From: a virus
Taxonomy: Duplodnaviria; Caudoviricetes
Length of the DNA: 52,421 nucleotides
Strand: one strand, 5' to 3'
Virus record (IMG/VR): IMGVR_UViG_3300025891_000058
Location: 1-52,421 of that record
Part shown: in pieces, positions 3,963-45,969 of the stretch
How the letters are laid out: each line of letters begins with the position of its first letter
How positions within the stretch are numbered: the first letter of the stretch is position 1
Made by a program: the position numbers and the translations under genes
Notes under the pieces: generated by a model
What the model saw: the letters and a program-made list of their open reading frames with translations, nothing else
The model's database searches: none
What the model was told of the DNA's origin: nothing

Positions 3963-3987
3963 CCGTATAGGCAGGGGTGAGGGTTAA
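3963..3987 (-). repeat. CCTATACGG-core intergenic repeat, copy 1
   Basis: 25 bp identical to 45028-45052. Confidence 0.9.
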
Positions 3988-4409
3988 GATTCTTTTGTTA
4001 TAGTCAGTGCAAAGGAGTATATTTTTCCATCGGTATCGTCAAGATCATTAACGACAAATCCAACTGCCGGATTATTCCCCTCGATAGTATATTCATCTCC
4101 TTCTTTATCTGCATTTTTTTCGTCGACCCTTTTCATTGCCTTTTCATATAGTGGCAAAAACTCATCCGATACAGTAAAGAATCCCATGTTGTGGTATGAT
4201 CTCAAAATGCCATCAGATTCTCTTATTAAGACTGTATCGCTTCCGTATGCACCCGACTTCTTTCTTACCTGTATCAATCGGCCAAAATGCACACTTTTTT
4301 GACCCTGAATAGGCCCCGTTATTACCAATGATTTAAATCCTAATTCATCTACATCGTATGCGAGCTTACCCCAATGGGATGTTTCGAATTGCATTTTCTT
4401 TTCTATCAT
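3984..4409 (-). CDS. Hypothetical protein flanked on both sides by CCTRTACGG repeats
   Basis: 141-aa ORF; start and stop codons both lie inside the repeats. Confidence 0.75.
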   Translation of the reverse strand: MIEKKMQFETSHWGKLAYDVDELGFKSLVITGPIQGQKSVHFGRLIQVRKKSGAYGSDTVLIRESDGILRSYHNMGFFTVSDEFLPLYEKAMKRVDEKNADKEGDEYTIEGNNPAVGFVVNDLDDTDGKIYSFALTITKES

Positions 4410-4440
4410 AATTTCAGTTGTTTTTATCTCCCCGTACAGG
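4403..4440 (-). repeat. CCTGTACGG-core repeat with leader and start codon, copy 2
   Basis: 36 of 38 bp identical to 45919-45956. Confidence 0.9.
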
Positions 4441-4447
4441 CATGGTG

Positions 4448-4561
4448 TTATTTTGCAAAGTTAATGAATAAATATGCTGCTATTACCGTAATAGTGGCGG
4501 TGTATATTATCGCATCGTAATACCAGGCAATTACGGTTAATATTTTGATTGTACGTTTCAT
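4448..4561 (-). CDS. Small hydrophobic membrane peptide (37 aa)
   Basis: Hand translation MKRTIKILTVIAWYYDAIIYTATITVIAAYLFINFAK; ATGA overlap with upstream ORF. Confidence 0.5.
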   Translation of the reverse strand: MKRTIKILTVIAWYYDAIIYTATITVIAAYLFINFAK

Positions 4562-4809
4562 TGCTTCAGTAGTTTTAAAATTGCTTTTCTAACGTTATAT
4601 GCAAACGAATCATGTAATTCTGATTTTACATTTGGGTGAACACGTGTTGAGGCGTCTGTTATCGCTTCGTTATACATTAAATTTCCATATTCTCGCATTA
4701 AATCAACAAATTCCTGTCTGTGTTTTCCACAAAGCCACCAAAATTCACCAACCCTTTTTATTATTATTGCCTCTTCTTTGCTGTATTCTCTTTCTTTTTC
4801 TGTTCCCAT
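4558..4809 (-). CDS. Hypothetical protein
   Basis: 83-aa ORF with AAACG-ATG leader. Confidence 0.65.
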   Translation of the reverse strand: MGTEKEREYSKEEAIIIKRVGEFWWLCGKHRQEFVDLMREYGNLMYNEAITDASTRVHPNVKSELHDSFAYNVRKAILKLLKQ

Positions 4810-4861
4810 CGTTTCTAATTTGGTTCTAAATTACTAAATACAAATTAATTAATCAACTAAT

Positions 4862-5086
4862 TTAAGTATTTTTATTTTCTTCTCTGTATTGTTTTTCGCA
4901 CTCTTTAGAGCAAAATAAATCCAATTTTCCGGATCTTAAATTATTGCATCCAATATTAAAACATTTGCGCTTTTCATTTTGGGATAATTTGCGATCTTTT
5001 TTTATCGGTTCGCTTGGAATTCCACCGAATCCACCCATTGATATCATTGCCATTGCCAATAATAAGCTGTTTCCTTTTCTGTTCAT
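4862..5086 (-). CDS. Small Cys-rich putative zinc-finger protein
   Basis: CFNIGC...FCSKEC. Confidence 0.6.
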   Translation of the reverse strand: MNRKGNSLLLAMAMISMGGFGGIPSEPIKKDRKLSQNEKRKCFNIGCNNLRSGKLDLFCSKECEKQYREENKNT

Positions 5087-5087
5087 C

Positions 5088-5282
5088 TCAATTCAAGTTA
5101 ATTTTATCCCCGATCATCTCAAAATCGTATTCCTCGTACTGTTCGCCTTCGTCGCCCCACTTATCCAAATTAGAGTCATAAGCGACAAATATTACTTTGC
5201 CTTCGAATTCAACCGGATATAAACCGGATTCACGTTTTACATGGAGGGTATCGCCTGTTGATGGGTCTTTAATGTAGGTCAT
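5088..5282 (-). CDS. Hypothetical acidic protein
   Basis: 64-aa ORF, operon packing. Confidence 0.6.
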   Translation of the reverse strand: MTYIKDPSTGDTLHVKRESGLYPVEFEGKVIFVAYDSNLDKWGDEGEQYEEYDFEMIGDKINLN

Positions 5283-5293
5283 ATTAGTTCGTT

Positions 5294-6070
5294 TTATTTA
5301 TTTTTAATAAATTTACATTGTGATTCATGGTATTCGTAAAGAGACTTCATGTCTGTGCCATTCATAAATGAATAGCAATTTTCATTTTCAGACCATTCTA
5401 AATTACATTCACGATAAAATATTTTACCGCTTTTCTTTTTAAAATAATACTTTACACATCTAATCGAAAATGTCAATCTTAAATTCCATATATCGGAAGA
5501 AAAATTACCGATTGTTACGTCTTCAATTTTTACTTTAAATCCATTTTGACCATTTAAATTATGATATAATAAAGATAGCATATTTTGTTGAGACGTTTTT
5601 AGCCAATCTATTTCTGATGTTATTTCTTTTGCTTTATTGGTAAATTTAGAATTTAAACTGTAGCTACTAGTCACCATTTCTTTTTCTGTAAATTCAATTT
5701 CTTCACCGTTTTTTAAAATAAAAGTAAATCCTTTATCTATTTCAATCGTGTCGGTGTATCTATTTTGCCCGGTTACAAAAATATTACCAGATAATAAATC
5801 ATTTTGGTATTTTTCGGCAGATTCATTACTTTTTTTTTCTGCTTTAATTCTTTCGTTTACTAATTGTCTTTTACTTTCAAAATTTTCAAGCTCAAAGATA
5901 TTTTTCTGGTTATCGGGATGTATGAACGACAATGAATTTTCAAGTGTTATTTTCAATTCCTGAAAAATAGGATTTAATTTATCCTTATTTATATCATAAA
6001 ACCAAAGAGGGATTCTTAAATTTAATCCCTCATATTGATCGTCGTTAAACTTTTGTAGGTTAAGTATCAT
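5294..6070 (-). CDS. Hypothetical protein
   Basis: 258-aa very AT-rich ORF; no motif recognised. Confidence 0.75.
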   Translation of the reverse strand: MILNLQKFNDDQYEGLNLRIPLWFYDINKDKLNPIFQELKITLENSLSFIHPDNQKNIFELENFESKRQLVNERIKAEKKSNESAEKYQNDLLSGNIFVTGQNRYTDTIEIDKGFTFILKNGEEIEFTEKEMVTSSYSLNSKFTNKAKEITSEIDWLKTSQQNMLSLLYHNLNGQNGFKVKIEDVTIGNFSSDIWNLRLTFSIRCVKYYFKKKSGKIFYRECNLEWSENENCYSFMNGTDMKSLYEYHESQCKFIKNK

Positions 6071-6071
6071 T

Positions 6072-6284
6072 TTATATTATTTTATAAGTTCCTGAATTTA
6101 ATCCCGATTGAAATTGTTTAACTGAACACCAAGCCATTTTAAGATTATTGATTCCGTTACCTCCCTTAAAATTAAAACCTACATACCAACTAATTCTTGT
6201 TTCTGTCACCTTCGCAATTTCAAATATATTGCTTGTTGGGGTAAAGTTTACTTTTGTTCCTATTGTTATTTCAGTTGCTTTCAT
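6072..6284 (-). CDS. Hypothetical protein
   Basis: 70-aa ORF, first gene after the promoter and operator at 6330-6381. Confidence 0.65.
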   Translation of the reverse strand: MKATEITIGTKVNFTPTSNIFEIAKVTETRISWYVGFNFKGGNGINNLKMAWCSVKQFQSGLNSGTYKII

Positions 6285-6363
6285 TATGTTCTATTTTTAG
6301 TGATTCAGCTTCCTTGCTGTTTCATGATGTAAATATACAACGTAAATTAACCGATATAACCAA

Positions 6364-6381
6364 AGCTGTTGCATAACATGT
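6364..6381. promoter_or_regulatory. Putative phage operator, copy 1 (AGCTGTT-gcat-AACATGT)
   Basis: One of six TGTT-N4-AACA dyads upstream of promoters. Confidence 0.7.
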
Positions 6382-6552
6382 TTAACGCTCAATTTCCTCA
6401 TCTTCATATTTCGTTGTGTCAATTTCGCACGGATCGTAATACGTGTCATTCAAATCAAATTTGCCGTTCTGAATCATTCGGATTAGTTTCCAGGCGCAAA
6501 ATACAGCGATCAGAACAAATGCAATAAAATACAAATAGCTTTCGGTTTCCAT
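6382..6552 (-). CDS. Small single-pass membrane protein (56 aa)
   Basis: Hand translation METESYLYFIAFVLIAVFCAWKLIRMIQ... with acidic tail. Confidence 0.55.
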   Translation of the reverse strand: METESYLYFIAFVLIAVFCAWKLIRMIQNGKFDLNDTYYDPCEIDTTKYEDEEIER

Positions 6553-6570
6553 ATTGGTTATTTTTAAGGG

Positions 6571-6777
6571 TTAAATTCTTTGTTTTGCACCGCATCGCAC
6601 ACAAACACCATCCCGATACAAATGATCAAACCAAAGCCAGCAAAACAGCTTAAATAGCCTACAATGTTGGTTAGCGATCAACTGCATAGTTTCTGCATCC
6701 TGTGCTGTCATTTCGGCTTGGATCTCTTTCTTAAGCATCTGCTTAAATTCGTAAATCAATTCTTTTTCGTCGTTCAT
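6571..6777 (-). CDS. Hypothetical protein with C-terminal CxxC
   Basis: CWLWFDH...CVRCG; ATGA overlap. Confidence 0.6.
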   Translation of the reverse strand: MNDEKELIYEFKQMLKKEIQAEMTAQDAETMQLIANQHCRLFKLFCWLWFDHLYRDGVCVRCGAKQRI

Positions 6778-7433
6778 TTTAATAGTCGTTTTAAGTTCGA
6801 TTTATTGTGAATTGTAGTAAACTTTTGAAGTTCTTCTATTAATTGCAAAACCCTTTCTTTTGATGGCTCTGGAAGTCCATGTTTTCCTGAATCTGCTCCA
6901 ATATTAACCTGTTTGGGGTTGATTCTTCCGATCAACTCAATCATTGATCCTAAGTTAAAATCCATAATTGGCTCAATGGTTACGAAAGTTTCAAAACCAC
7001 AATCAGAAAGCATTTCCATATACTTCATTCTTTCGTATGGTTTCGGACTATTTGCCATAATTTCAGGGTAATGAATATCGCTTTCAATCGTGGTGCAGAT
7101 AACAGATTTAGGCAATTTGAAATCCATTACTCTTTTTGGATTTTTAGTCTGAAACAAATATCTATTATCAAACTTATTGCAATAGTTTAATGTTTTGGCA
7201 ATCCAATCTTCCGGTATATTTTCAGCAAACAAATCACAACTTGAACCAACGAAAATAAAGTTTTCTGAGCCTAAGTCTGTTTTAATTTCCTTTTCGTCAA
7301 ATCGTACCGGCTTTAATTTGCCCCACCGCTTCATATAACAATAACTGCAATCGTGATAACATTCACCTTTTACGGTATTCCATGTGTGAGTCACAAAGTC
7401 GTACATGTTGCCTTTTGATATATTTAGTGCCAT
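6774..7433 (-). CDS. Radical SAM protein, DUF5131 / phage Gp37-Gp68 family
   Basis: TWNTVKGECYHDCSYCY (CxxxCxxC), FVGSSCDLF, LFQTKNP, TIEPI. Confidence 0.85.
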   Translation of the reverse strand: MALNISKGNMYDFVTHTWNTVKGECYHDCSYCYMKRWGKLKPVRFDEKEIKTDLGSENFIFVGSSCDLFAENIPEDWIAKTLNYCNKFDNRYLFQTKNPKRVMDFKLPKSVICTTIESDIHYPEIMANSPKPYERMKYMEMLSDCGFETFVTIEPIMDFNLGSMIELIGRINPKQVNIGADSGKHGLPEPSKERVLQLIEELQKFTTIHNKSNLKRLLK

Positions 7434-7475
7434 ATCGTTTTTTAATTTGCTTTAAAGTTAATAATAATCAGTTAA

Positions 7476-8084
7476 TTATTTCAAATAATCGTTTAATATC
7501 TCACGGATTAATTTTGCCTGTGATATTAATACTGATGCATATAAGTGACCTTTCATATTTATTTCATTTGTCAGCTCAATTATTATTGATCTTATTTCGT
7601 CATTGTTGTACTTTTCCGGTTCGCATTTAATCTTCTCCATTTCGTCACGGGTCAATAATTCGCCAACGCTCCAAGTATCGGATTTAAACCAATGTTTTTT
7701 AACTTCCGGTATCGCTTCAGCTATCCATTTACCACCATCGTAAATAATGATTTGTTTTCTGCCGTCTGTTGCAAGTTTTGACAGTCCAATTAACTTTAGT
7801 CTACCAGACTTCATTTTGTCCATGTCGGTAGCTGTTTTGATTGTGCAACCAGAAATAAAACCGCGCTTTCTAGCTTCGCTGATTAGGTAGTTTTGCCATT
7901 GATTAACCACGTGTAATTCCATTAATCTTCGATTAAATTCATATCCGTGAAATAAATCACTTGCATACCTCGGAAGGCTCATAATAAACTCAAATTGATC
8001 TTCCGTAAATAATCTTTTTGCCTCCACTCTTTTAATCTCGTATTCCACGCCGTCAATTTTGATAATTTCAGTTTTGTTTGTCAT
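7476..8084 (-). CDS. Hypothetical protein
   Basis: 202-aa ORF. Confidence 0.7.
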   Translation of the reverse strand: MTNKTEIIKIDGVEYEIKRVEAKRLFTEDQFEFIMSLPRYASDLFHGYEFNRRLMELHVVNQWQNYLISEARKRGFISGCTIKTATDMDKMKSGRLKLIGLSKLATDGRKQIIIYDGGKWIAEAIPEVKKHWFKSDTWSVGELLTRDEMEKIKCEPEKYNNDEIRSIIIELTNEINMKGHLYASVLISQAKLIREILNDYLK

Positions 8085-8095
8085 TTTACTTTTAT

Positions 8096-8332
8096 TTAAA
8101 GTTCTGTTAATTCGTAATATGGAATATCATATTCTGTATGATTGAAATAAGCCTTAACTGATCTTTCTTTTAGGATGTTGCTGATTATTACAACATTTGC
8201 CCCGATTATATTTTTACTACCATCGGTTTGATGTCGAATTGTCGCAATACACCTATCTCCTACTTGTAATTTTTCTGCAAAATGATTGTAGGATTTTCCT
8301 TCCATGATTCTATTTAATTCGTTATAATCCAT
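8096..8332 (-). CDS. Hypothetical protein
   Basis: 78-aa ORF, operon packing. Confidence 0.6.
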   Translation of the reverse strand: MDYNELNRIMEGKSYNHFAEKLQVGDRCIATIRHQTDGSKNIIGANVVIISNILKERSVKAYFNHTEYDIPYYELTEL

Positions 8333-8346
8333 TTTATTATAGTTTT

Positions 8347-8544
8347 TTAAAATAATTTCATTGTTAGTTCTATTCTGTTTTCCTTGCTTATTTTCTTACC
8401 CTTAATGCACGCCCAAAATCTCAAAGTTGCAAAAGAATAGCGTAAAATGTTGAGGTGCCCTGCATGATATTTAAACTTTTGCTTATCCCATCGCTTTATG
8501 ATTTTTGCATTAAATCGGGATTGGGATGTGTAAAAGGTATTCAT
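8347..8544 (-). CDS. Hypothetical basic protein
   Basis: 65-aa ORF, ATGA overlap. Confidence 0.55.
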   Translation of the reverse strand: MNTFYTSQSRFNAKIIKRWDKQKFKYHAGHLNILRYSFATLRFWACIKGKKISKENRIELTMKLF

Positions 8545-8843
8545 TTGCGTTCAAGTGGTCTCCAATGGGTAACGTTAGTAAATGGCCTTGCTATTTCATT
8601 GGAATAAAATACATTATCTCTAACAAATCCACACACTTCGTATAAGTGAAATGGATGACTTCTTTTTAGTAGTACATTTATGTTTTTTTCTGGAAGCTCT
8701 TCTTCGACTGTAATCCATCGCTGTGCCTCTCTTGATCCTAATTGTGCCCAATCAATGTAGCATGTAACATCCATCCTTTTGTGAGCCGATAAACTTTGAT
8801 CTGATATATATCGACCAAATGCTACTTCTTCAATTGTTTTCAT
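8541..8843 (-). CDS. DUF551-like protein
   Basis: WITVEEELPE...VTHWRPL; paralog of 2738-3049. Confidence 0.75.
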   Translation of the reverse strand: MKTIEEVAFGRYISDQSLSAHKRMDVTCYIDWAQLGSREAQRWITVEEELPEKNINVLLKRSHPFHLYEVCGFVRDNVFYSNEIARPFTNVTHWRPLERK

Positions 8844-8846
8844 AAT

Positions 8847-9038
8847 CTAAAATTTATCACCGTTTAGTAAATCGTTTTTATTTAATTGCCTCTTTGCCTC
8901 TTTGTCGAATTCTGACCAGTAGAACGTATTGACGATTGAATCTGGAAGTAATTGAATGCAACCACAAACTCGGTTTTTATTCATGAATTTGACAAAATCA
9001 ATTAAGGCTTGGCGTTCTGATCGTTTGCGTGCGGTCAT
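8847..9038 (-). CDS. Hypothetical protein
   Basis: 63-aa ORF, ATGA overlap. Confidence 0.55.
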   Translation of the reverse strand: MTARKRSERQALIDFVKFMNKNRVCGCIQLLPDSIVNTFYWSEFDKEAKRQLNKNDLLNGDKF

Positions 9039-9253
9039 TTTGATTTAGTTAATGATAATATTCTTCCTCCAACTTCTATCTCTTCGCCTTTATTTAAGCG
9101 ATCAATAACCTCATTAACCATTTCTTCGGCGTATTCAAACATCACATTTGAAATATCATCAATATGTTTTGCATTTAACTCTCCAAGGGTAGATAGGCCG
9201 TTTGTCCTATTGTGGATTACCTTACCTAATAAATATCGTTTTGGATGATCCAT
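9035..9253 (-). CDS. Hypothetical protein
   Basis: 72-aa ORF after promoter and operator. Confidence 0.6.
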   Translation of the reverse strand: MDHPKRYLLGKVIHNRTNGLSTLGELNAKHIDDISNVMFEYAEEMVNEVIDRLNKGEEIEVGGRILSLTKSK

Positions 9254-9311
9254 TTCTTTATCGTTTTAAATTATACGTAAAAATATACCTAATATTAACA
9301 CATTCAACAAA

Positions 9312-9329
9312 AGATGTTTTTAAACATGT
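9312..9329. promoter_or_regulatory. Putative phage operator, copy 2 (AGATGTT-ttta-AACATGT)
   Basis: Dyad abutting a TTTG -33 box at 9308-9311. Confidence 0.7.
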
Positions 9330-9598
9330 TTTATCCCATTCTTTGCCATAAATTCAGCGTGAATCTGCATTAGTTCGGCTTTGGTATATGGTGGTGACTG
9401 CGTGTGTATTGCGTCGTGAAGATCGTAATTAAGCGCAATTAAGCCGTTTATATCAAGTTTGTTTTTGCCTATTCTGCCATTGATATGGTGGACGTTGACC
9501 CCTGGCGTTCCGTCGTTTTTTACTTCGCAAATAATATCTTCTTTGATCTGATAGCCAAAAAAACGCATGTAAACTTTTATGTAGTCAGGAACTGCCAT
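9320..9598 (-). CDS. HNH-like protein with degenerate Zn ligands
   Basis: CEV...VNVHHINGR...LIAL...HDAIH. Confidence 0.65.
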   Translation of the reverse strand: MAVPDYIKVYMRFFGYQIKEDIICEVKNDGTPGVNVHHINGRIGKNKLDINGLIALNYDLHDAIHTQSPPYTKAELMQIHAEFMAKNGIKHV

Positions 9599-10021
9599 TT
9601 ATTCGAGTTTTAAATATTCATCGATGATTGATTTAGCCATATCGAACCCAATCGCAAACATCGGATAATATCCTTTAGCGTTCAAAAGTCGCATGCAGTT
9701 AATTTGTTCCTGAACGTGTTCTGTGACCGCTTCGCCGTTTCGCTTATAAAGTACTTCACCTTCTTTTTTAAGTTCGATAAATAGGCCGTGAAACTCTCCA
9801 CGAGGTTCGTAGATGGAAATATCCGGGAATCCTTTATTGCTTCGTAGTTTTGAAATCTGTACCGCCTGGCCAATGGTTAATTTCATAGCACCAGCCATGT
9901 CGGAGTTGAAAATCACGGCAGGATAAGCGATTTTCAAATAATCGCAAACCATTTTTTGGAGTTCTTTCTCGCTTTGCTGTTTTAGCACTGTTTTTGCCCT
10001 GTACGTTTTCTGTTTATACAT
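9599..10021 (-). CDS. VRR-NUC family nuclease, putative Holliday junction resolvase
   Basis: SEKELQ...KGFPDISI...GLFIELK...EQ PD-(D/E)xK pattern. Confidence 0.85.
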   Translation of the reverse strand: MYKQKTYRAKTVLKQQSEKELQKMVCDYLKIAYPAVIFNSDMAGAMKLTIGQAVQISKLRSNKGFPDISIYEPRGEFHGLFIELKKEGEVLYKRNGEAVTEHVQEQINCMRLLNAKGYYPMFAIGFDMAKSIIDEYLKLE

Positions 10022-10050
10022 TTACTTGTCTTTTTACTTAATCGTTAAAT

Positions 10051-10365: not shown

Positions 10366-10507
10366 ATTTAATTATTAAGTTTTGTTTTTCTTTGTCCATT
10401 TCCATTATCATCTCAATCGCACCTTTTAGTATTCGCTGGTGTTCGGAAAACGACACTAATCCTGGATTGTCTCGGGTATCGCAAATTTCATCAAATGTTA
10501 TTTTCAT
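10316..10507 (-). CDS. Hypothetical protein
   Basis: 63-aa ORF with coiled-coil-like C terminus. Confidence 0.5.
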   Translation of the reverse strand: MKITFDEICDTRDNPGLVSFSEHQRILKGAIEMIMEMDKEKQNLIIKYENVKADIKKAMVRLD

Positions 10508-10545
10508 GATTAAAATAATAAAGGGTTAATTTTTGATAATTCTGT

Positions 10546-11729: not shown

Positions 11730-11793
11730 AACTATTTAATAAATGGTTTATGCGTGCAATATACAAAAACCTTTTGATACTACAAAATAAAAT

Positions 11794-15393: not shown

Positions 15394-15684
15394 TTACATT
15401 CCACCGTCTTCATCTGGGAAAGACCCGGATTTATGATCCTTTAATTCTCTTTCAACAAACTCCATAATCTCAACAAGTAATTGAGCTTTGTAAAGTCCAT
15501 CCGCAATATCGCTACATTGGCCGTAAAAGCACCCTTCTTGCCCTGGTTCCTGGATATCGAATGTCTTATGCTCGTAGTTTAGATAAAGCGTTAATTCGAC
15601 CGTATCGAGCGTAAAAGTGTACTCTGCATTTAATAGTGTTTTCATGTTAAATAAATTTAAGAATATAAGTTTCAAAATCTTCAA
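15394..15684 (-). CDS. Hypothetical protein (likely start MKTLLN near 15645)
   Basis: ORF follows the DUF1367-like gene. Confidence 0.6.
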   Translation of the reverse strand: MKILKLIFLNLFNMKTLLNAEYTFTLDTVELTLYLNYEHKTFDIQEPGQEGCFYGQCSDIADGLYKAQLLVEIMEFVERELKDHKSGSFPDEDGGM

Positions 15685-16084
15685 GTGAAATGTCTTTTAA
15701 GAACGTATTAACGATCTTTCCCGTGCAAAGGTGGTAAATCCTGTTAAACTCCACGTCGTCCATAGATTTGAAGCTAATTGACTTCGGAATCAGGATTAAC
15801 TCGCCTTTCATTGTGATATGTGCATCTACCTGACCAATTAATATCATCAACTCTTTGCGTAAATATTCAATGTTTCGAAGTTTATCGAATTCCGGTTCCT
15901 CTGGCAATAAATAAATAGTCCGGTTTAATAGCGCAAAGAATCTTCGATGGTTAGTTACGTTTCGTTCCTTCCATGTTTCAATCTCGCAATAGTCGCCATC
16001 TTTCAATTTTAACCAGTTTTTAAAATCTTCATCCGTATCGTGTGAAAGTGCGTTTTTGTCGAGTATTCTGGCGTGAAATTTCAT
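15647..16084 (-). CDS. DUF1367-like protein
   Basis: RNVTNHRRFFALL...IPKSISFKSMDDVEF. Confidence 0.75.
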   Translation of the reverse strand: MKFHARILDKNALSHDTDEDFKNWLKLKDGDYCEIETWKERNVTNHRRFFALLNRTIYLLPEEPEFDKLRNIEYLRKELMILIGQVDAHITMKGELILIPKSISFKSMDDVEFNRIYHLCTGKIVNTFLKDISLEDFETYILKFI

Positions 16085-16086
16085 TA

Positions 16087-16374
16087 TTATACGATCTTTA
16101 AGTTTTCAACTAAAAGTTTTTCGGCTTTTTTAAGTGTACTCATCCTTATACTAAAATCCTGAAAAAACAATGTTTTGTCTTTAAATGATCTGACTTTTAC
16201 GTAATCCCAGTAGAGATCATTATCATTTGAAAGTACAAATTTATGAATCACAAGCGTTATTTCTCCCGGCTCAATATTTGATCTACAAAATACAAAATTT
16301 TGCCTACAAAGATCACCACTTTTAGTTCTGTTCTTAATTGAGCATTTCGAAATTACTTTTACTTCGTTTTTCAT
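16087..16374 (-). CDS. Hypothetical protein
   Basis: 95-aa ORF. Confidence 0.6.
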   Translation of the reverse strand: MKNEVKVISKCSIKNRTKSGDLCRQNFVFCRSNIEPGEITLVIHKFVLSNDNDLYWDYVKVRSFKDKTLFFQDFSIRMSTLKKAEKLLVENLKIV

Positions 16375-16408
16375 CTGTAAATAGTTGTTTTATCGTTTAA
16401 TTTAATCG

Positions 16409-16645
16409 CTAAATAATTTGATCTTTAGTTTTTAAAATAGATTCTTTGTTTATCTCTGCATTGTAAGTATCATCTTCGCCATCATATCCTACAGATGCAC
16501 GCACATTTTCAGCACATAAAATAACCGTCTGGTCACATGCATTTTTCATTGCCTTTAAAATCGCCTTGTATAAAAACGGACTTACGAACGTATTTATTTT
16601 ATTCTCTTCATTATAAAGAATATCTTTTAGTATTATTTTATTCAT
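16409..16645 (-). CDS. Hypothetical protein
   Basis: 78-aa ORF. Confidence 0.6.
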   Translation of the reverse strand: MNKIILKDILYNEENKINTFVSPFLYKAILKAMKNACDQTVILCAENVRASVGYDGEDDTYNAEINKESILKTKDQII

Positions 16646-16800
16646 TTGTAAATTACTGTTTTACTGTTAATTTTAATTGCTTTTAGTTTAGATAAGTCCG
16701 GCGATGTTATTCCGGACTCTTTTATTCTTTGGCTGTCGTTTCCGTTTAACTTTGATAGTTTGGAATGACTGCCAGGTTGTGATTCATCATTATTTTTCAT
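16642..16800 (-). CDS. Hypothetical protein (52 aa)
   Basis: Hand translation ends PDLSKLKAIKINSKTVIYK; fills the gap exactly with ATGA overlap. Confidence 0.55.
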   Translation of the reverse strand: MKNNDESQPGSHSKLSKLNGNDSQRIKESGITSPDLSKLKAIKINSKTVIYK

Positions 16801-16802
16801 GA

Positions 16803-17156
16803 TCAAAATGGTAAAATATCTGAATCATCATTTTTATCAATCGGTTGTCGTGAATCAAATGGTGGTGGAGTATTTTTTTGTTGTCCGATTACATCGACTT
16901 TAAAAGCCATTAAATTAGTGAAATACTTCTCTTTGTATTCGCGTGAATCAATTGAGAAAGACACTTCGACCTCAGAATCAATCTGAATATTTGCCATTAT
17001 TTCAGGTTTATTAAATACCGTAAAACATGCAGATTTCGGATAATTACCGCCTTCATATTGGATTACAAAATCTTGTTTCTCCCACTCTTTCCCAGCTGCC
17101 GATGTTCCACCTGTCTTCGCTAAAATTGCTGTTACTAATCCTTTTGTTGTAAACAT
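16803..17156 (-). CDS. DUF3127 OB-fold protein, putative ssDNA-binding protein
   Basis: GKEWEKQDFVI...YPKSACF...IDSREY...; acidic SSB-like tail DDSDILPF. Confidence 0.88.
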   Translation of the reverse strand: MFTTKGLVTAILAKTGGTSAAGKEWEKQDFVIQYEGGNYPKSACFTVFNKPEIMANIQIDSEVEVSFSIDSREYKEKYFTNLMAFKVDVIGQQKNTPPPFDSRQPIDKNDDSDILPF

Positions 17157-17174
17157 TTTATTTAATTGTTAAAT

Positions 17175-17963
17175 TTATACTTCAATAAAACCATTATTGT
17201 AAAATTCGTATGAGGCATAAAATAAGTCCTCTTCCGCACACCGCCTGAACTCACTTAATGAAACAGAGAATTCGCCGAATGCTTTTTGTAGTGTTTCTTC
17301 TGATAATTTAATTACGGTCACATTACAACCGGAATCAATAAAAATAAGAAAGTATTTTTCAACTCCTGATGCGTGGGAATATATCGCGCCTTGCATATCG
17401 TAAAGCATATCAATGACGGCCCATTTGCATTTTTTAAATGAGGCGTCTGCTATTTTTTTCAGGTCTATTGCATATTCCCGCTTTCTTTTTCCGTCTATTC
17501 TGCCTGTTATTTTAAAATCATCCTGAATAAATTCAAAGTAACATTCTTTTTCAGTCAGCCCTGCCATTAAATCTTTAGTGGCAGAACATTGCATTAAATA
17601 ATCACCCATTGCCAAATAAGAATCGTAATCATCTTTTTTAATTCTTTCTTTGCCTTCGTTTAGTTTATCCTGTTCAATAACCCACTCTTTGTATTTATTG
17701 GTTGCTCGTGGATTACCGCCGCCGATTTCAAGAACCTTTGCAGAATCATCCAATACCCAATACGTGGCCATGAACTTTTCAGGTTCCAGGATTGCCATGT
17801 GAAACATTTTGCCCTGATTCATTGCCTCGGTCGTTTCCTTTTCTGTTTTGTATTTTAAAAAATGTTTTGGTGATTGTCTGAACGCTTTCAATGCTGAAAA
17901 ACTAAGACCTTTTACGCCGGTCATTATTTCAAATACCTCTTTGTTAAAATCTTCGTTTTTCAT
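17175..17963 (-). CDS. PD-(D/E)xK exonuclease (RecE / exonuclease VIII, DUF3799-like)
   Basis: LSFSALKAF..SP.HF, AM..G..FH..ILEPE, GRIDG...IDLK, YDMQGAIY. Confidence 0.85.
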   Translation of the reverse strand: MKNEDFNKEVFEIMTGVKGLSFSALKAFRQSPKHFLKYKTEKETTEAMNQGKMFHMAILEPEKFMATYWVLDDSAKVLEIGGGNPRATNKYKEWVIEQDKLNEGKERIKKDDYDSYLAMGDYLMQCSATKDLMAGLTEKECYFEFIQDDFKITGRIDGKRKREYAIDLKKIADASFKKCKWAVIDMLYDMQGAIYSHASGVEKYFLIFIDSGCNVTVIKLSEETLQKAFGEFSVSLSEFRRCAEEDLFYASYEFYNNGFIEV

Positions 17964-18084
17964 TCGGTTTGTTTTTCTGATTGTTCAATAAAATAAAGCT
18001 CGTACAAATCGGCTTGTTTTGCCATTTCAATATCAAGGCTGTCACCCCTGATATTTTTTGATTCGTGATATATTTCTTCTAATC

Positions 18085-18780
18085 TCATGGCCGTATCATT
18101 TTAACGATTTTTTCCAACTCTGATTTAAATTCCTTTTTCATACCGAACGGAGCAACGCAAAAAGCATCGTAATTACGTAATCCACTTTCGTATATTTCCG
18201 GCTCTGTTGATGATAGCCTTTCTTTCAATGTCGTAAATTGCTTTTCGGACATCCATGTTTCAATTTTGGCGGCTGTTTTTGCCTGTTCTTTCGGTTTAGC
18301 TGGCGTTTCTATGTTATCGCTGTGAGTAGTATCAGAATCGTCTATTTTTCCCGTAGGAATCAAAAATAAATAAAGCAGAGTATATTTAAGCGCATATGTT
18401 GTTGCTTTGCCTGCTGATTTATCCTGAGAATCCACACCGTGACCATATCCTTTAACTTCCATCCATTCGCCTGAAATATGGGTCAAAAGGTAAGTAGTTG
18501 TCACTTTTGTGAATATTTGCTGTTTCCTTTTGGTTCCATATTGCTGGCTGGTTTCTTCCCATTCACTTAATTGCGTGCTTTCGTCAATGTCAACTGGAAA
18601 TATTGCCAGTCCGTTTTTTGCCATTGATTCACCGATAACCTTTTTTACTTCCTGATCAGGAACACCTTTATAAGAATTCCTACCTTCACCAATAACCATA
18701 GTTTTATCAATCCCTTTTACTTCTTGCATTACTGCAATAATGGCCTTTATTAATTCGCAAATGCTTTCTGATTTGTTCAT
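18085..18780 (-). CDS. erf: ERF-family ssDNA annealing recombinase
   Basis: HISGEW...DSQDKSAGKATTYALKYTL...IPTG..DD.D. Confidence 0.88.
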   Translation of the reverse strand: MNKSESICELIKAIIAVMQEVKGIDKTMVIGEGRNSYKGVPDQEVKKVIGESMAKNGLAIFPVDIDESTQLSEWEETSQQYGTKRKQQIFTKVTTTYLLTHISGEWMEVKGYGHGVDSQDKSAGKATTYALKYTLLYLFLIPTGKIDDSDTTHSDNIETPAKPKEQAKTAAKIETWMSEKQFTTLKERLSSTEPEIYESGLRNYDAFCVAPFGMKKEFKSELEKIVKMIRP

Positions 18781-21238: not shown

Positions 21239-21487
21239 TTAATTTTTATTAATCTTCTTTATTCCTATAAAACTAATCCATTCATTAAAACTCTTTTTTC
21301 CAAATAGTGGTGTATATCCATGAATCTTACAGGCCTCTTTAATAACTGATATATTCTCAACTCTTATTGGAAATCCATTATTCATAATAACATCATCCCC
21401 ACGCTCAATTTTTTCGAGTATCCTACCAAATTCCACACCATAAGTGAAAGACTGGCTTTGATCTGTAAATTTAATTAGTATATTCAT
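21239..21487 (-). CDS. Hypothetical protein preceded by a CCTATACGG repeat
   Basis: 82-aa ORF. Confidence 0.65.
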   Translation of the reverse strand: MNILIKFTDQSQSFTYGVEFGRILEKIERGDDVIMNNGFPIRVENISVIKEACKIHGYTPLFGKKSFNEWISFIGIKKINKN

Positions 21488-21496
21488 CTTCTGATA

Positions 21497-21530
21497 TTTT
21501 TCTCCCCCGTATAGGAGAGAGGTTAAATTA
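21497..21530 (-). repeat. CCTATACGG-core repeat, copy 3
   Basis: Core at 21507-21515; flanks resemble 45941-45969. Confidence 0.85.
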
Positions 21531-21538
21531 AATGTGTT

Positions 21539-21832
21539 TTAAATCTCTTGAAATTTACTTGTGCTTATTTCAATGTCTTCACTTGGATAATGAGCCTCGC
21601 CAATTTTATGAAGCAAACCGATCATTTTTTTTGCAAGTCTCTCTCCTTCTAGTGTATATATAAACGAAATTTCATCTTCATAAGTCAAATCGTCCTCCTC
21701 GACATCTCTGATTAATCCGGCATCTTTTGTGAATGTGTCCAAATAACTTTCAAGTATCTCGATACAATACTCCTCAAAATCCCCAACATCTTCAATTTTC
21801 TTTTTTGTGTTAAATTCTTTCATCTCATTCAT
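21539..21832 (-). CDS. Acidic early protein
   Basis: D/E-rich; start moved to MNEMKEF because the upstream part of the ORF overlaps the -7 box at 21855-21862. Confidence 0.65.
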   Translation of the reverse strand: MNEMKEFNTKKKIEDVGDFEEYCIEILESYLDTFTKDAGLIRDVEEDDLTYEDEISFIYTLEGERLAKKMIGLLHKIGEAHYPSEDIEISTSKFQEI

Positions 21833-41306: not shown

Positions 41307-41609
41307 TTACCAAACGTTTATAAATGTTGCTTTTGGCGACAAAGGACTAGTTAACCCATTCTTTGCAAAGATCGAATCCGCAAATTGAATAAGCAGCTTC
41401 TTTTCAGTCATACTGATCTGATAACCACCCTCGGTAATATTCGGACTTGAAACTAAAGTATAGCAAAGATCAGCGTAAACCAATTCAAGAGACTTTTTGT
41501 CAGAATAAACATCGGACGAAGTTAGTCCTCGATCCTGTAACGCTAAAATAAAAGCGTTTTCAGATAGCGGGTAGTTTAACTTTGCCTTTATTGCTTCTAA
41601 ATTTGTCAT
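41307..41609 (-). CDS. Head-tail connector (DUF6706-like)
   Basis: MTNLEAIKA...PNITEGGYQIS; first gene after capsid. Confidence 0.7.
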   Translation of the reverse strand: MTNLEAIKAKLNYPLSENAFILALQDRGLTSSDVYSDKKSLELVYADLCYTLVSSPNITEGGYQISMTEKKLLIQFADSIFAKNGLTSPLSPKATFINVW

Positions 41610-44130: not shown

Positions 44131-44224
44131 TCGTTTTACCTTATTGGTTGGGTTTATTTCTTAAATTTATTAATGATTCGTTTTACCTTGTCGAGTGTGC
44201 TTTATTTTGGTTTTGAAGTATTTC

Positions 44225-44626
44225 TTATCGCCCCTGATTTATTCTTTGCATATTCGATTTCGACCATTTTTCACCATCTCTTATTTTTATCTTTTTTTCA
44301 AGAATTCTCGACTCGGTCTTCATTAATTGCTTATTATAATTATAAGGATTCCTATTTTTGGAATAATCTGTAATTTTAGAATTTATGATTTCGTGCAATT
44401 CAAGGTTGGTTCCTGGTTTTTGAATTCTATGGTCCACGTGCTCACATATTATATGCAATTCCTTTAATATCTCATCATTAAACGATAATCCATCCATGCC
44501 ATAATATACCCATCTTAAATATCGAGTGTGTTTTAGGTCGAATATCTGCCTTATACTTAAATCTGCATGTTTTCCAAACCCTATCACCGACTTCCACGCC
44601 ATAGTCCTTAATCTTATTGCATCCAT
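44225..44626 (-). CDS. Protein with an FGKH...YLRW motif (ExoX C-terminal / DUF3820-like)
   Basis: IGFGKHADLSIRQI...YLRW. Confidence 0.6.
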   Translation of the reverse strand: MDAIRLRTMAWKSVIGFGKHADLSIRQIFDLKHTRYLRWVYYGMDGLSFNDEILKELHIICEHVDHRIQKPGTNLELHEIINSKITDYSKNRNPYNYNKQLMKTESRILEKKIKIRDGEKWSKSNMQRINQGR

Positions 44627-44982
44627 TTCTTAAATTTATTAATGATTCGTTTCCAAAATCTCGTAATTCGATTAACCTTGTAATATTCCAATGTGTTCAT
44701 AATCGTATCGTCAACCATTACATGTATAAAATGCCGTTCATGTGCTGAACATTTCGACTGTCCTGCCTCGATTAGCTTAAATTCAGACGTTAATCCCTCG
44801 ACGGTAAGCAATCCCTTAAGTTCGATATGATAAAAGGTATTACGCCTTAATTCGAGCCCCTGTGCACGGACAACTACTAACGAACAATTGCGGCGGTGTG
44901 TTTCTTCGTTTATCGCGTCATCTAACAGTATTTTAAACTGTTTATCGTTTAGGATATCGTTAATGTATGTAAATTGTTTCAT
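44614..44982 (-). CDS. Hypothetical protein
   Basis: 122-aa ORF. Confidence 0.65.
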   Translation of the reverse strand: MKQFTYINDILNDKQFKILLDDAINEETHRRNCSLVVVRAQGLELRRNTFYHIELKGLLTVEGLTSEFKLIEAGQSKCSAHERHFIHVMVDDTIMNTLEYYKVNRITRFWKRIINKFKKWMQ

Positions 44983-45027
44983 GTTTTAAGTTTATAAGTA
45001 TTATTCACAACATTTAAGTGTTATTCA

Positions 45028-45052
45028 CCGTATAGGCAGGGGTGAGGGTTAA
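45028..45052 (-). repeat. CCTATACGG-core repeat, copy 4
   Basis: Identical to 3963-3987. Confidence 0.9.
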
Positions 45053-45056
45053 AATT

Positions 45057-45458
45057 TTAAACACTGCAATTAATGCTTTCTAAATAACGGCACACAGTTA
45101 AGTAATCGCCGAACTCGTCGTTTAAATAACCACCCCTTCGTTTATCTAATTCGATCCCTAAATAAACATATTGGACTCTCAATTGTCCCTTTCGTTCAGA
45201 ACATGGCGAATTTTTGTATTTTTTATCACTTGACAATTCATATTTTCTCCATCCAAACTCATACATATTTAAAGGAATATTTATTCTCCTATCCTCCGAA
45301 TCTTCCAAACTCTTTAAAACAATTTCGGTATCGGTGATTTTAATTAACTCTAATTTCATTCCAATATAAGAAGCATCGCCAGAATAACCATTAGGCGGGC
45401 ATACTCTGGTGACAATACTCCCCTTCTTTATTTTTTTAATGCTTAATATTTTAATCAT
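45057..45458 (-). CDS. Hypothetical protein (inside repeat-bounded block)
   Basis: 133-aa ORF. Confidence 0.65.
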   Translation of the reverse strand: MIKILSIKKIKKGSIVTRVCPPNGYSGDASYIGMKLELIKITDTEIVLKSLEDSEDRRINIPLNMYEFGWRKYELSSDKKYKNSPCSERKGQLRVQYVYLGIELDKRRGGYLNDEFGDYLTVCRYLESINCSV

Positions 45459-45709
45459 TTTTCTTGTTCTAAATGGTTAATAAAAAGTTCTATTTCAGTT
45501 TTTAATAATTTCATTTTGGTTATAAAGTCCGATATTGAATCTTCGTCTTTTTTATGAAGTTTAATGGAATATTTACAATCAGATATTTTAATAAAAACAT
45601 CCCTGTATGTTTTGTCTGAATATTTCACGTCTCCATCAAATGTAACTACGCTGCTGGTAGAAGAAGATTTTATATCGTTTAGCCAGATTCTTTTATTATA
45701 TTGATTCAT
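45455..45709 (-). CDS. Hypothetical protein (inside repeat-bounded block)
   Basis: 84-aa ORF. Confidence 0.65.
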   Translation of the reverse strand: MNQYNKRIWLNDIKSSSTSSVVTFDGDVKYSDKTYRDVFIKISDCKYSIKLHKKDEDSISDFITKMKLLKTEIELFINHLEQEK

Positions 45710-45727
45710 CCTTTTTATGGTTTGTGG

Positions 45728-45925
45728 TTAATATTCGAATCGTTCAATATTTCCATTCAATAAATTTTCAATCCATAAACATTCACACGGCTCACAACTC
45801 AATATATTTCCCGTGTGGTCTCCTATATTGCACCTGTCAGTTTTAACATTTGAAAATGTTGTGTCTGTTTGTTCCATTTCCCCTCCACAATCAGGGCAAG
45901 TAATACCGGAATCATTTGCTATCAT
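45728..45925 (-). CDS. Zinc-ribbon protein (inside repeat-bounded block)
   Basis: CPDCGG...CEPCE. Confidence 0.65.
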   Translation of the reverse strand: MIANDSGITCPDCGGEMEQTDTTFSNVKTDRCNIGDHTGNILSCEPCECLWIENLLNGNIERFEY

Positions 45926-45969
45926 ATTTTCAGTTGTTTTTATCTCCCCGTATAGGAGAGGTTAAATTA
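45919..45969 (-). repeat. CCTATACGG-core repeat, copy 5
   Basis: Core 45948-45956; one flank matches copy 2, the other matches copy 3. Confidence 0.9.

What the first reader, a model, noticed from the sequence alone, without database searches (positions are those of the whole stretch)
3963..45969. Five CCTRTACGG cores with interchangeable flanks bound accessory genes: candidate gene-cassette shuffling system
Seen: a 9-bp core occurs at five gene boundaries (3963, 4432, 21507, 45028, 45948), always in the same orientation. On the minus strand the upstream halves are TTAACCCTCACCCCTG (twice), TTTAACCTCT(CT) (twice) or TAACACCATG. The downstream halves are GGAGATAAAAACAACTGAAA-nn-ATGATAG (twice), GGGAGAAAAATATCAGAAG-ATG, CAATAAAAC or TGAATAAC. 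The halves occur in different combinations. Two unrelated cargos, one gene (3984-4409) and three genes (45057-45925), have the same ends: core plus leader plus ATG at the front, and TTAACCCTCACCCCTG plus core at the back. Several copies can fold with TATAC in the loop (TCTCC/GGAGA, TGCC/GGCA). Inference: crossover in the core swaps, excises or inserts ready-to-translate cassettes, analogous to integron attC arrays but with no visible integrase. The phage ERF/RecE pair could supply homology-driven exchange.
Basis: partly seen in the sequence, partly recalled or inferred. Interest (0 to 1): 0.8.

Follow-up and report, generated by a model that had tools for sequence, protein, structure and literature searches.

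The report
Hairpin linkers flanking swappable phage genes
A small group of uncultured tailed phages joins some of its accessory genes with short conserved stop-to-start linkers built around one invariant 9-base hairpin, and related phages have swapped, lost or moved genes at these linkers, much like the known 'PeSL' cassettes of T4-type phages.

Summary
The window is a complete circular siphovirus-type genome with no integrase. Six other viral or metagenome record types carry 1-3 cores each, always on the coding strand. Each core sits in a 40-50 nt linker that runs from the upstream stop codon to the next ATG. The core forms the top of a hairpin whose arms co-vary. Six cargos with no detectable similarity occupy the same frame, La-core-Ra ... 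Lb-core. One site in G002 is a hybrid of two G003 sites that overlap only in CTG+core. One gene with its hairpin lies about 18 kb away in a relative. Genes were also exchanged without cores. The units hold no promoter or terminator consensus. Contigs of two DNA runs show no empty site, which is uninformative. Best reading: PeSL-like recombination joints that are also RNA hairpin and leader elements. An integron-like enzyme system is not supported. The core's reverse complement matches the type I-F CRISPR repeat hairpin over at most 14 of 28 nt; I treat this as probably coincidental. This scan has noted similar arrays on other DNA.

The parts
45923..45969 (-). Linker unit U1 (La-core-Ra). It runs from stop TAA of gene 45967-46191, through TTTAACCTCT, core CCTATACGG (45948-45956) and leader GGAGATAAAAACAACTGAAAAT, to the ATG of gene 45728-45925.
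   Evidence: Hairpin CTCTCC/GGGGAG, -8.6 kcal/mol. 97% over 38 nt to G003 1107-1144.
44980..45059 (-). Linker unit Lb-core-Re. It runs from the stop of gene 45057-45458, through TTAACCCTCACCCCTG, core (45028-45036) and TGAATAACACTTAAATGTTGTGAATAATACTTATAAAC..., to the ATG of gene 44614-44982.
   Evidence: 100% over 28 nt to G003 1351-1378. An Re-like right half is joined to a different left half in L044. Weak fold, -5.0 kcal/mol.
45057..45925 (-). Cargo 2, three small genes: a 65-aa CxxC zinc-ribbon-like protein (45728-45925), an 84-aa protein (45455-45709) and a 133-aa protein (45057-45458).
   Evidence: (weak Zn_ribbon hit, below cut-off). The 84-aa and 133-aa genes have homologs about 75% identical at the DNA level in G002 next to the lysis genes, with no cores.
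21485..21541 (-). Linker unit La-core-Rd. It runs from the stop of gene 21539-21868, through TTTAATTTAACCTCTCT, core (21507-21515) and GGGAGAAAAATATCAGAAG, to the ATG of gene 21239-21487.
   Evidence: Strongest window hairpin, -11.1 kcal/mol. In G003 the homologous gene (93% DNA identity) is followed by a variant hairpin TCTCCC-ATACT-GGGAGA, and similarity ends inside the hairpin.
4407..4450 (-). Linker unit Ld-core-Ra. It runs from the stop of the conserved 37-aa ORF (4448-4561), through CACCATG, core variant CCTGTACGG (4432-4440) and leader GGAGATAAAAACAACTGAAATT, to the ATG of cargo 1.
   Evidence: 42-nt repeat with 45915-45956 at 93% (family D9). Hairpin almost absent, -2.1 kcal/mol.
3984..4409 (-). 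Cargo 1, a 141-aa protein of unknown function.
   Evidence: phrog_33619, unknown function. 37 related protein clusters at E<=1e-3. Homologs in the unrelated viral contigs L046 and L047 lack cores. The syntenic slot in G004 holds a different gene without cores.
3944..3986 (-). Linker unit Lb-core-Rb. It runs from the stop of cargo 1 (the TAA inside TTAACCC), through CCCTCACCCCTG, core (3963-3971) and CAATAAAACTAATATA, to the ATG of gene 3743-3946.
   Evidence: 100% over 36 nt to G003 1355-1390, where both neighbouring genes differ. 4-bp stem TGCC/GGCA, -5.0 kcal/mol.
46192..46234 (-). Second portable leader, 'leader X' (...GGGATTTACACTTAAAAATAATTGAGATG), in front of the gene that precedes U1. 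The same leader precedes the gene upstream of U1 in G002 and G003.
   Evidence: (97% over 31 nt to G002 41526-41556). A related copy precedes window gene 21539-21868.
15647..18780 (-). Candidate recombination functions: NinB/Orf (15647-16084), RecE/exonuclease VIII-like (17175-17963) and Erf-like annealing protein (18085-18780).
   Evidence: PHROG hits: phrog_319 at 2.9e-21, phrog_412 at 2.6e-27 and phrog_155 at 9.9e-25. Their role at the units is inferred, not shown.

Best explanation
The five sites are copies of short intercistronic linker units of about 40-50 nt, each running from the stop codon of one gene to the ATG of the next. Each unit has a left arm rich in C and T, the invariant CCTATACGG, a right arm that often starts with G, and an A-rich leader. 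On the mRNA the core forms the top of a small hairpin (CC-UAUAC-GG) that is extended by 2-6 further pairs at many sites. I propose two roles. First, the unit is a shared RNA-level signal between cistrons: a hairpin followed by an unstructured A-rich leader. It most likely acts as a processing or stability element, or as a protein-binding element, and sets up translation of the next gene. This role is inferred. Second, because the same units recur beside unrelated genes, they act as short patches of identity where recombination joins otherwise unrelated DNA. That recombination is probably the phage's own Erf / RecE-like / NinB functions or host recombination. Over evolutionary time it swaps, deletes, inserts and relocates small accessory genes as ready-to-translate cassettes. 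The evolutionary exchange at or next to the units is shown by comparison with relatives. The enzyme and the RNA function are inferred. Functionally this is a promoter-less, terminator-less analogue of the PeSL cassettes of T4-type phages.
For: The core is non-random and strand-specific: 5 hits against 0.19 expected in the window. It occurs 2, 2, 3 and 3 times in G001-G004, with 0 hits to the reversed control pattern, and on the TerS strand in 4 of 4 core-bearing TerS loci.

Stereotyped anatomy: stop codon to core is 7-34 nt (12 nt at 7 of 15 sites with a called upstream ORF), and core to ATG is mostly 16-23 nt.

Helix: 78.6% of cells are paired against 39-55% when partners are slid. The covariation score is 0.377 against 0.222 for shuffles (0 of 500 reach it). 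4 of 7 pairs change on both sides, and the inner 4 pairs hold in 11 of 12 distinct rows. G.U wobbles make the sense strand the more stable one at 8 of 14 instances.

Cassette exchange: between G002, G003 and G004, similarity is limited to the units and the genes between them differ. Thirteen cargo proteins gave no pair better than E=0.067.

Hybrid junctions: 8 different left/right combinations are seen. Lb occurs with Rb, Rc and Re; Rc with Lb and Lc; Re with Lb and a further left half; Ra with La and Ld.

The G002 site at 42162 equals the left side of the G003 site at 1370 plus the right side of the G003 site at 2211, with only CTG+core shared.

Relocation: window gene 21539-21868 with its hairpin lies in the pre-terminase array of G003.

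Arrays sit at different genome positions: before TerS in the window, G002 and G003, and about 3 kb after TerS in G004.

Recombination genes are present.

The PeSL description I read in PMC2839356 (sections 13 and 16) matches the logic of stop codon, AT-rich tract, stem-loop with G-T pairs, leader and start codon flanking ORFans.
Against: Exchange is not tied to the cores. In G004 the slot of window cassette 1 holds another gene with no core, and the breakpoints lie 6 nt upstream of the left core and at the downstream ATG, so both cores lie inside the exchanged segment. Homologs of cargo 2 in G002 and of cargo 1 in L046 and L047 have no cores.

Other linkers without the core (leader X, and TAAGAATTGAAGATG in G002) also recur in front of different genes. 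Gene-boundary mosaicism is therefore general in this clade and not specific to the core.

23 of 34 window intergenic regions have hits in relatives, and many syntenic ones are 90-100% identical. Conservation alone therefore does not single the units out.

The hairpin is weak at 3 of 5 window sites, and the outer three pairs form in only about half of the rows.

The shared identity at hybrid junctions is only 12 nt, which is short for annealing-type recombination (my own knowledge).

The data set is small: 17 sites, 12 distinct, from one clade. The helix was also derived from the same sequences it was tested on.
Confidence: 0.6

Rival explanations
1. The unit is purely a regulatory RNA element. 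The hairpin and leader are a processing, stability, translational or protein-binding signal. The mosaic pattern comes from the general tendency of phage recombinants to survive only when joints fall at gene boundaries. On this view the units are carried along and do not promote exchange.
For: The arms co-vary and use sense-strand wobbles. The distance to stop and start codons is fixed. Exchanges also happen at boundaries without cores. Other conserved leaders recur too. Many intergenic regions are highly conserved in this clade.
Against: Identical halves recur in 8 different combinations. One junction is a hybrid whose two parents overlap only in CTG+core. That requires crossovers in or right beside the core and cannot arise by divergence. 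Six cargos with no detectable similarity share one frame.
Confidence: 0.22
2. Site-specific, hairpin-directed cassette recombination (attC-like). An unidentified phage or host enzyme recognises the folded or double-stranded CCTATACGG core and exchanges strands there, excising circles and inserting cassettes.
For: The 9-mer is invariant across all left and right classes, apart from one A-to-G change at 4432. Orientation is always the same. The hybrid junction maps to 12 nt. Weakly folding hybrid sites such as Ld-core-Ra look like recombination products.
Against: No integrase, transposase or Xer-type recombinase family hit appeared among the 60 distinct window proteins scanned. The smallest of the roughly 100 ORFs were not scanned. 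The hairpin has a 4-8 bp stem and lacks the paired boxes and extrahelical bases of attC (my own knowledge of attC). Cores can lie inside exchanged segments. The variant hairpin in G003 lacks the exact core. The unit was not found as a repeat in bacterial genomes: one hit that I judge to be chance, with no flanking similarity.
Confidence: 0.1
3. CRISPR-repeat mimicry. The reverse complement of the core is the loop and top of the type I-F CRISPR repeat hairpin, which is the Csy4/Cas6f site. The units could be degenerate solitary repeat units that act on host Cas proteins (Racr-like), or relics of contact with a CRISPR array.
For: The published I-F repeat is GTTCACTGCCGTATAGGCAGCTTAGAAA, and its reverse complement contains CTGCCTATACGGCAG (passages). 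Lb-core-Rb shares 14 contiguous nt with it, and the Lb, Lc and Lf classes share CTG+core. SRUs in phages are intergenic (PMC10651486, passages).
Against: Flanks beyond the hairpin top are not similar (all 24 shuffle tests p>0.14). Coverage is at most 14 of 28 nt, against the >=90% coverage and bit score >=41.1 used to define SRUs. The I-F-sense strand is antisense to every gene, and no promoter was found for it at the sites. Wobble pairs favour the other strand. The La-type units share only the 9-mer. The host, and so its CRISPR type, is unknown. The match was found after the fact through a literature search on a 9-mer.
Confidence: 0.04

Closest known systems
PeSL (promoter-early stem-loop) regulatory cassettes of T4-type phages (Arbiol et al. 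2010, PMC2839356: abstract and sections 13 and 16 read; Comeau et al. 2014, PMC4122927: abstract read)
   Same: Both are repeated intergenic blocks that run from the upstream stop codon in an AT-rich tract, through a stem-loop containing G-T pairs, to the leader and start codon of the next gene. Both flank small ORFans in variable regions. In both, related phages differ by insertions, deletions and replacements bounded by the blocks, and chimeric blocks are left behind. Homologous recombination between blocks is the proposed mechanism.
   Different: PeSLs span about 100 bp, contain a strong sigma70-type early promoter, and their stem-loops were shown to terminate transcription. Here the units are 40-50 nt with no promoter consensus of either type tested and no T-run terminator. 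They occur only 1-5 times per genome, against about 50 for PeSLs. They share one invariant 9-nt hairpin top, and the hybrid junction maps to just 12 nt. They occur in uncultured siphovirus-type genomes, including inside the head module. PeSL mini-circles were shown physically, whereas none could be looked for properly here.
Integron gene cassettes with attC sites (my own knowledge, no paper read)
   Same: Both are directional arrays of promoter-less single-gene cassettes. Each junction is a composite of a left part linked to the upstream gene and a right part linked to the downstream gene. Both have a folded imperfect-palindrome site and combinatorial junctions.
   Different: There is no IntI-type tyrosine recombinase and no attI or Pc platform. 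The hairpin is far smaller than attC and lacks its paired boxes. Cargo homologs elsewhere do not carry the site.
Solitary CRISPR repeat units / RNA anti-CRISPRs (Camara-Wilpert et al. 2023, PMC10651486: abstract and passages read)
   Same: Both are short, intergenic, phage-borne sequences with the type I-F hairpin top.
   Different: Only 9-14 of 28 nt match. They lie on the strand antisense to all genes, have no promoter, and occur in several copies flanking genes.
Conserved gene-boundary or linker sequences and 'morons' of lambdoid phages and mycobacteriophages (my own knowledge; the search listed papers that I did not read)
   Same: Mosaic joints fall at gene boundaries, and accessory genes are added between conserved genes.
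   Different: Morons carry their own promoter and terminator. Here the genes are embedded in operons and share a defined repeated hairpin linker.

Membership tests
PeSL cassettes | Repeated intergenic motif spanning the upstream stop codon, an AT-rich tract, a stem-loop, a leader and the downstream start codon | tested here: met
   the stop codon lies inside TTTAATTTAACC or TTAACCC, and core to ATG is mostly 16-23 nt.
PeSL cassettes | Contains a strong sigma70-like early promoter | tested here: not met
   Searches place no sigma70-type site on the units. One search finds 4 Bacteroidota-type promoters on the coding strand (consensus recalled), none in a unit. The only box near a site is TAACTTTG at 4463.
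PeSL cassettes | Stem-loop with G-T pairs that acts as a terminator or attenuator | tested here: inconclusive
   A stem-loop with wobbles and covariation is present. No T-run terminator pattern lies at the units. Activity is not testable here.
PeSL cassettes | Preferentially next to ORFans in variable regions | tested here: met
   most genes flanking cores have no homolog in the related genomes; no informative family; the regions differ between relatives.
PeSL cassettes | Indels and replacements between related phages bounded by the motifs, leaving chimeric motifs | tested here: met
.
PeSL cassettes | Mini-circles from recombination between neighbouring motifs | not testable with these tools
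   Only assembled contigs of two DNA runs were available, and these cannot show rare forms.
Integron / attC cassette system | Adjacent IntI-type tyrosine recombinase with attI and Pc | tested here: not met
   No recombinase family hit among the 60 distinct proteins scanned. ORFs under about 60 aa were mostly not scanned.
Integron / attC cassette system | attC architecture: two pairs of imperfect inverted boxes with extrahelical bases, about 57-141 bp (recalled) | tested here: not met
   The hairpin is a single stem of 4-8 bp with a 5-nt loop.
Integron / attC cassette system | Crossover at one fixed position in the core | tested here: inconclusive
   The hybrid junction is resolved only to the 12 shared nt CTGCCTATACGG. 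Other breakpoints lie outside the cores.
Solitary repeat unit / Racr | Near full-length similarity to a known CRISPR repeat (>=90% coverage, bit score >=41.1) | tested here: not met
   At most 14 of 28 nt are contiguous, and the flanks are not similar.
Solitary repeat unit / Racr | Transcribed in repeat sense, usually from a promoter just upstream | tested here: not met
   The repeat-sense strand is antisense to all genes, and no promoter-like site lies at the units. No RNA run holds the sequence, so expression is untested.
Solitary repeat unit / Racr | Host carries the matching CRISPR-Cas subtype | not testable with these tools
   Host unknown. The nearest cultured phages have under 30% TerL identity.

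The most novel reading that the evidence does not exclude
The invariant CCTATACGG hairpin is the actual crossover site of a dedicated, hairpin-directed gene-cassette exchange system in tailed phages. It would be a functional counterpart of integron attC sites that works without a tyrosine integrase, using an unrecognised phage or host enzyme. Its identity with the top of the type I-F CRISPR repeat hairpin might then not be accidental.
Probability: 0.1. Interest if true: 0.8.

Novelty: new variant of a known kind. Interest (0 to 1): 0.45.

Why it matters
How phages gain and shed small accessory genes without breaking their operons is only partly understood. The best-described device, the PeSL, is known from T4-type myoviruses. 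This clade of uncultured siphovirus-type phages shows a stripped-down version of the same logic: a stop-to-start linker with one invariant hairpin, no promoter and no terminator. It occurs even inside the head-gene module, and one hybrid junction is resolved to 12 bases. That suggests short shared linkers may be a general route to modular gene exchange in phages. It also gives a compact 40-50 nt element that could be tested as a portable insertion site, or as an RNA processing or translation signal, once a host is known. Because this scan has already noted many PeSL-like arrays in other phages, the main value here is as one more, unusually minimal, example.

Tried and rejected
One search found 2 DNA runs that hold the stretch, both possibly the source, and no RNA holder was listed. 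When their contigs were laid on window 3000-22500, they bridged 3963, 4432 and 21507 with no joint at a core. The three listed joints lie elsewhere, two of them with short sides of 21 nt. Contigs drop rare variants, so this says nothing either way.

No similar DNA in the cultured-phage collection. The head-morphogenesis protein found no viral relatives.

Rfam: no family at the sites at gathering threshold over the whole window, and none at E<=10 in 44900-46100 (only two hits far below their cut-offs). So no known ribozyme or cis-element explains the core. This also tested the lead from scan note e1-3293241 (trans ribozyme), with a negative result.

A census of YATAC/TGTAC-loop hairpins with at least 5 bp found no hidden population: 5, 3, 5 and 2 on the sense strand per genome, against shuffle means of 1.0-3.1.

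Host-repeat idea: one exact hit in a Rossellomorea chromosome, with similarity to the window limited to 26 nt at the motif. I judged it a chance match.

Phyletic search for a trans-acting factor was abandoned. The apparently core-less close relative G005 proved to be the G003 type with its contig broken at the array. The other core-less records are distant (TerS 46-65% identical). L041's record was not held and so was not searched.

Host inference from TerL failed: all hits are under 60% identity and the listed best ones about 26-29%.

Promoter and terminator readings of the unit were rejected. CRISPR-repeat mimicry was examined and set aside as a low-probability rival.

Supplementary files of the papers were closed. 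The SRU tables of PMC10651486, which could show whether these contigs were called as SRU carriers, were not seen.

Full report
WHAT THE WINDOW IS. The window is a complete circular phage assembly: bases 1-206 repeat at 52216-52421. It is 36% G+C, and essentially all genes lie on the minus strand. PHROG and Pfam scans of 60 distinct proteins gave the gene order. In transcription order these are portal, glycosyltransferase, methyltransferase, head-morphogenesis protein, scaffold-like protein, major head protein, tape measure, tail proteins, endolysin, Erf, RecE-like exonuclease, NinB, two HNH endonucleases, primase/helicase, DNA methyltransferase, a tRNA-Thr, and TerS and TerL. No RNA polymerase, integrase, transposase or Xer-type recombinase was hit. 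No cultured phage is close: there is no DNA match, and TerL identity is below 30% in the listed hits. The host is unknown.

THE OBSERVATION. CCTRTACGG occurs five times, all on the coding strand, against 0.19 expected. The core-plus-leader of 4432 and 45948 is a 42-nt repeat at 93%. Each site is intergenic. The upstream stop codon lies 7-23 nt before the core, and at three of the five sites it lies inside the conserved left half. The next ATG lies 16-22 nt after the core, or 45 nt at 45028. The conserved thing is therefore a whole stop-to-start linker.

RELATIVES. Exact searches for the halves in IMG/VR and in the metagenome collection found only one small clade. It comprises G001/G002 (one phage, 2 cores), G003 (also seen as L041, 3 cores), G004 (3 cores), G011 (also L038, L039 and L043, 1 core) and a 1.1-kb contig, L044 (3 cores). 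Of 24 loci with a TerS relative, 4 hold cores (from three records, G003, G004 and G011) and 20 do not. Eight further records of relatives have none. One of these, G005, is the G003 type with its contig broken at the array, so it is not informative. All cores lie on the coding strand.

HALVES RECOMBINE.
- Left halves fall into classes La (TTTAATTTAACCTCTCT), Lb (TTAACCCTCACCCCTG), Lc (..CTCTG), Ld (AATAACACCATG) and Lf (..TTATATCTG).
- Right halves fall into Ra (GGAGATAAAAACAACTGAAATT-ATG, including the variant in G011), Rb (CAATAAAACTAA..), Rc (TGGGGACAAAACAAATTT..ATG), Rd (GGGAGAAAAATATCAGAAG-ATG) and Re (TGAATAAC.. / TTAATAAC..).
- Eight combinations occur.
- Ra precedes at least six different genes. 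Lb-core-Rb sits between three different gene pairs. Rc always precedes a DUF551 gene but follows Lb in G002 and Lc in G003 and G004.

In a three-way comparison of the arrays, similarity is confined to La-core-Ra (55-70 nt, 88-96%), Lb-core (25 nt, 96-100%) and core-Rc-gene. The G002 site at 42162 matches G003 1354-1378 on its left and G003 2208-2273 on its right, and these overlap only in CTGCCTATACGG. G002 therefore lacks, or G003 and G004 gained, a cassette with the joint in or beside the core. Thirteen cargo proteins show no pair better than E=0.067. Three of the six genes that directly follow La/Ld-core-Ra are 64-65 aa CxxC...CxxC proteins, so a shared fold cannot be excluded.

RELOCATION. 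Window gene 21539-21868 is 93% identical at the DNA level to a G003 gene. In G003 that gene lies in the pre-terminase array, preceded by Lb-core-Rb, which is absent in the window. It is followed there by a variant hairpin, TCTCCC-ATACT-GGGAGA, and the similarity stops inside that hairpin. The syntenic early-region slot in the G003/G005 lineage lacks this gene. Arrays also sit at different places: before TerS in the window, G002 and G003, about 3 kb after TerS in G004, and a single unit sits before a lysis-module gene in G011.

RESULTS AGAINST A SPECIAL ROLE FOR THE CORE.
- In G004 the slot of window cassette 1 holds another gene with no core. The breakpoints are 6 nt before the left core and at the downstream ATG, so both cores lie inside the segment that differs.
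- Two genes of cargo 2 lie in G002 beside the lysis genes, with no cores. They are flanked there by a different repeated leader, and similarity runs from ATG to stop.
- Cargo 1 has 37 related protein clusters. In two unrelated viral contigs it has no core.
- A second portable leader without a core recurs in the window and in relatives.
- 23 of 34 window intergenic regions have hits in relatives, and many syntenic ones are 90-100% identical.

Exchange at gene boundaries, and conserved non-coding DNA, are thus general in this clade. The core-bearing units stand out because they recur beside different neighbours (3-7 places each).

THE HAIRPIN. Folding gives -2.1 to -11.4 kcal/mol. The sense strand is the more stable one at 8 of 14 instances, the antisense at 5, and 1 is a tie. 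On 12 distinct rows out of 17, a 7-pair helix has 78.6% of cells paired against 39-55% for slid partners. The covariation score is 0.377 against 0.222 for shuffles (0 of 500 reach it), and four pairs change on both sides. The inner four pairs hold in 11 of 12 rows and the outer three in about half. The test set is small and related, and the helix was derived from it. No Rfam family matches. No further hairpins of this kind are hidden in the genomes. The units contain no sigma70-type or Bacteroidota-type promoter consensus and no T-run terminator.

MECHANISM. What is shown: the units are conserved, directional, hairpin-containing stop-to-start linkers, and evolutionary exchange has occurred in or right beside them. 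What is inferred:
(a) The hairpin works on the mRNA, probably as a processing, stability or protein-binding signal ahead of an unstructured A-rich leader.
(b) Recombination uses the short identity of the units, with Erf, the RecE-like exonuclease and NinB as candidate agents.
The invariance of the 9-mer across otherwise different arms argues for sequence-specific recognition by some factor. That factor could be RNA-binding or DNA-binding, and this keeps a site-specific mechanism alive at about 10%.

THE CRISPR COINCIDENCE. A literature search on the 9-mer showed that its reverse complement is the loop and top of the type I-F repeat, the Csy4 hairpin (passages). Lb-core-Rb shares 14 contiguous bases with the reverse complement of the published repeat. 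The rest of the repeat is not matched: all 24 flank tests gave p>0.14. The repeat-sense strand is antisense to all genes, and the criteria for solitary repeat units are not met. I keep this as a curiosity with about 4% probability.

COMPARISON AND NOVELTY. The closest known system is the PeSL of T4-type phages. The units work like PeSLs as recombination joints around ORFans, but they fail the defining promoter feature and show no terminator pattern. I therefore file them as a new variant of that kind and not as members. They are not integron cassettes, having no integrase and no attC architecture. Earlier notes of this scan describe many PeSL-like arrays in other phages, which lowers the surprise. 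No look-alike of this particular unit was on record in the scan. As for print, the only search I ran on the motif itself is. I opened two of its ten listed hits; both, and other titles in the listing, concern the Csy4/type I-F repeat or unrelated constructs, and none that I saw concerns these phages.

Noticed in passing
window 3963-3971 and the other four cores, plus strand: The reverse complement of the core (CCGTATAGG) is the loop and top of the published type I-F CRISPR repeat, the Csy4 hairpin. The Lb-core-Rb unit shares 14 contiguous nt with the reverse complement of that repeat, but the flanks do not match.
   Followed up: yes
window 46192-46234 and 21869-21890; G002 41526-41556 (coding-strand coordinates); G003 about 900-935: A second portable leader (...CTTAAAAATGAATGAGATG) precedes unrelated genes in the window and in relatives. 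In G002 and G003 it heads the gene just upstream of the first hairpin unit, as it does at window 46192-46234.
   Followed up: partly
window 2483-2556, minus strand: A tRNA-Thr (anticodon TGT) lies between a DUF551 gene and TerS (ARAGORN and Rfam). The ORF called at 2434-2637 overlaps it and is probably spurious.
   Followed up: no
window 2738-3063 and 8533-8857: Two paralogous DUF551 genes (103 and 100 aa) share repeated DNA segments at 76-85% identity. In G002, G003 and G004 the DUF551 gene is the one that always follows the Rc-type unit.
   Followed up: partly
window 45728-45925; G004 25194-25391 (coding-strand coordinates); L044 44-238 (reverse strand): Three of the six genes that directly follow the La/Ld-core-Ra leader encode 64-65 aa CxxC...CxxC zinc-ribbon-like mini-proteins with no significant sequence similarity (best E=0.067).
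   Followed up: partly
G002 coding-strand 20620-20660 and 21310-21340: In G002 the homologs of window genes 45057-45709 are flanked on both sides by another repeated leader (TAAGAATTGAAGATG-ATG), so that genome reuses a different linker.
   Followed up: no
window 6317-6386, 9265-9334, 19193-19262, 46590-46659: A four-copy 70-nt intergenic repeat family with a TGTT-N4-AACAT dyad (repeat finder family D2).
   Followed up: no
window 50519-50552, 26512-26543, 22029-22058, 2702-2732, minus strand: Four full TTTG-N17-23-TAnnTTTG matches lie on the coding strand against one on the other strand. This hints at Bacteroidota-type promoters and therefore at the host phylum. The consensus is recalled from memory and was not tested.
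   Followed up: partly
G005 (L048-L050), contig ends: The 46.8-kb contig of the G003-type phage starts at the tRNA/TerS region and ends at the equivalent of window 6294. Its assembly therefore broke exactly at the variable array, which may reflect population heterogeneity there.
   Followed up: no
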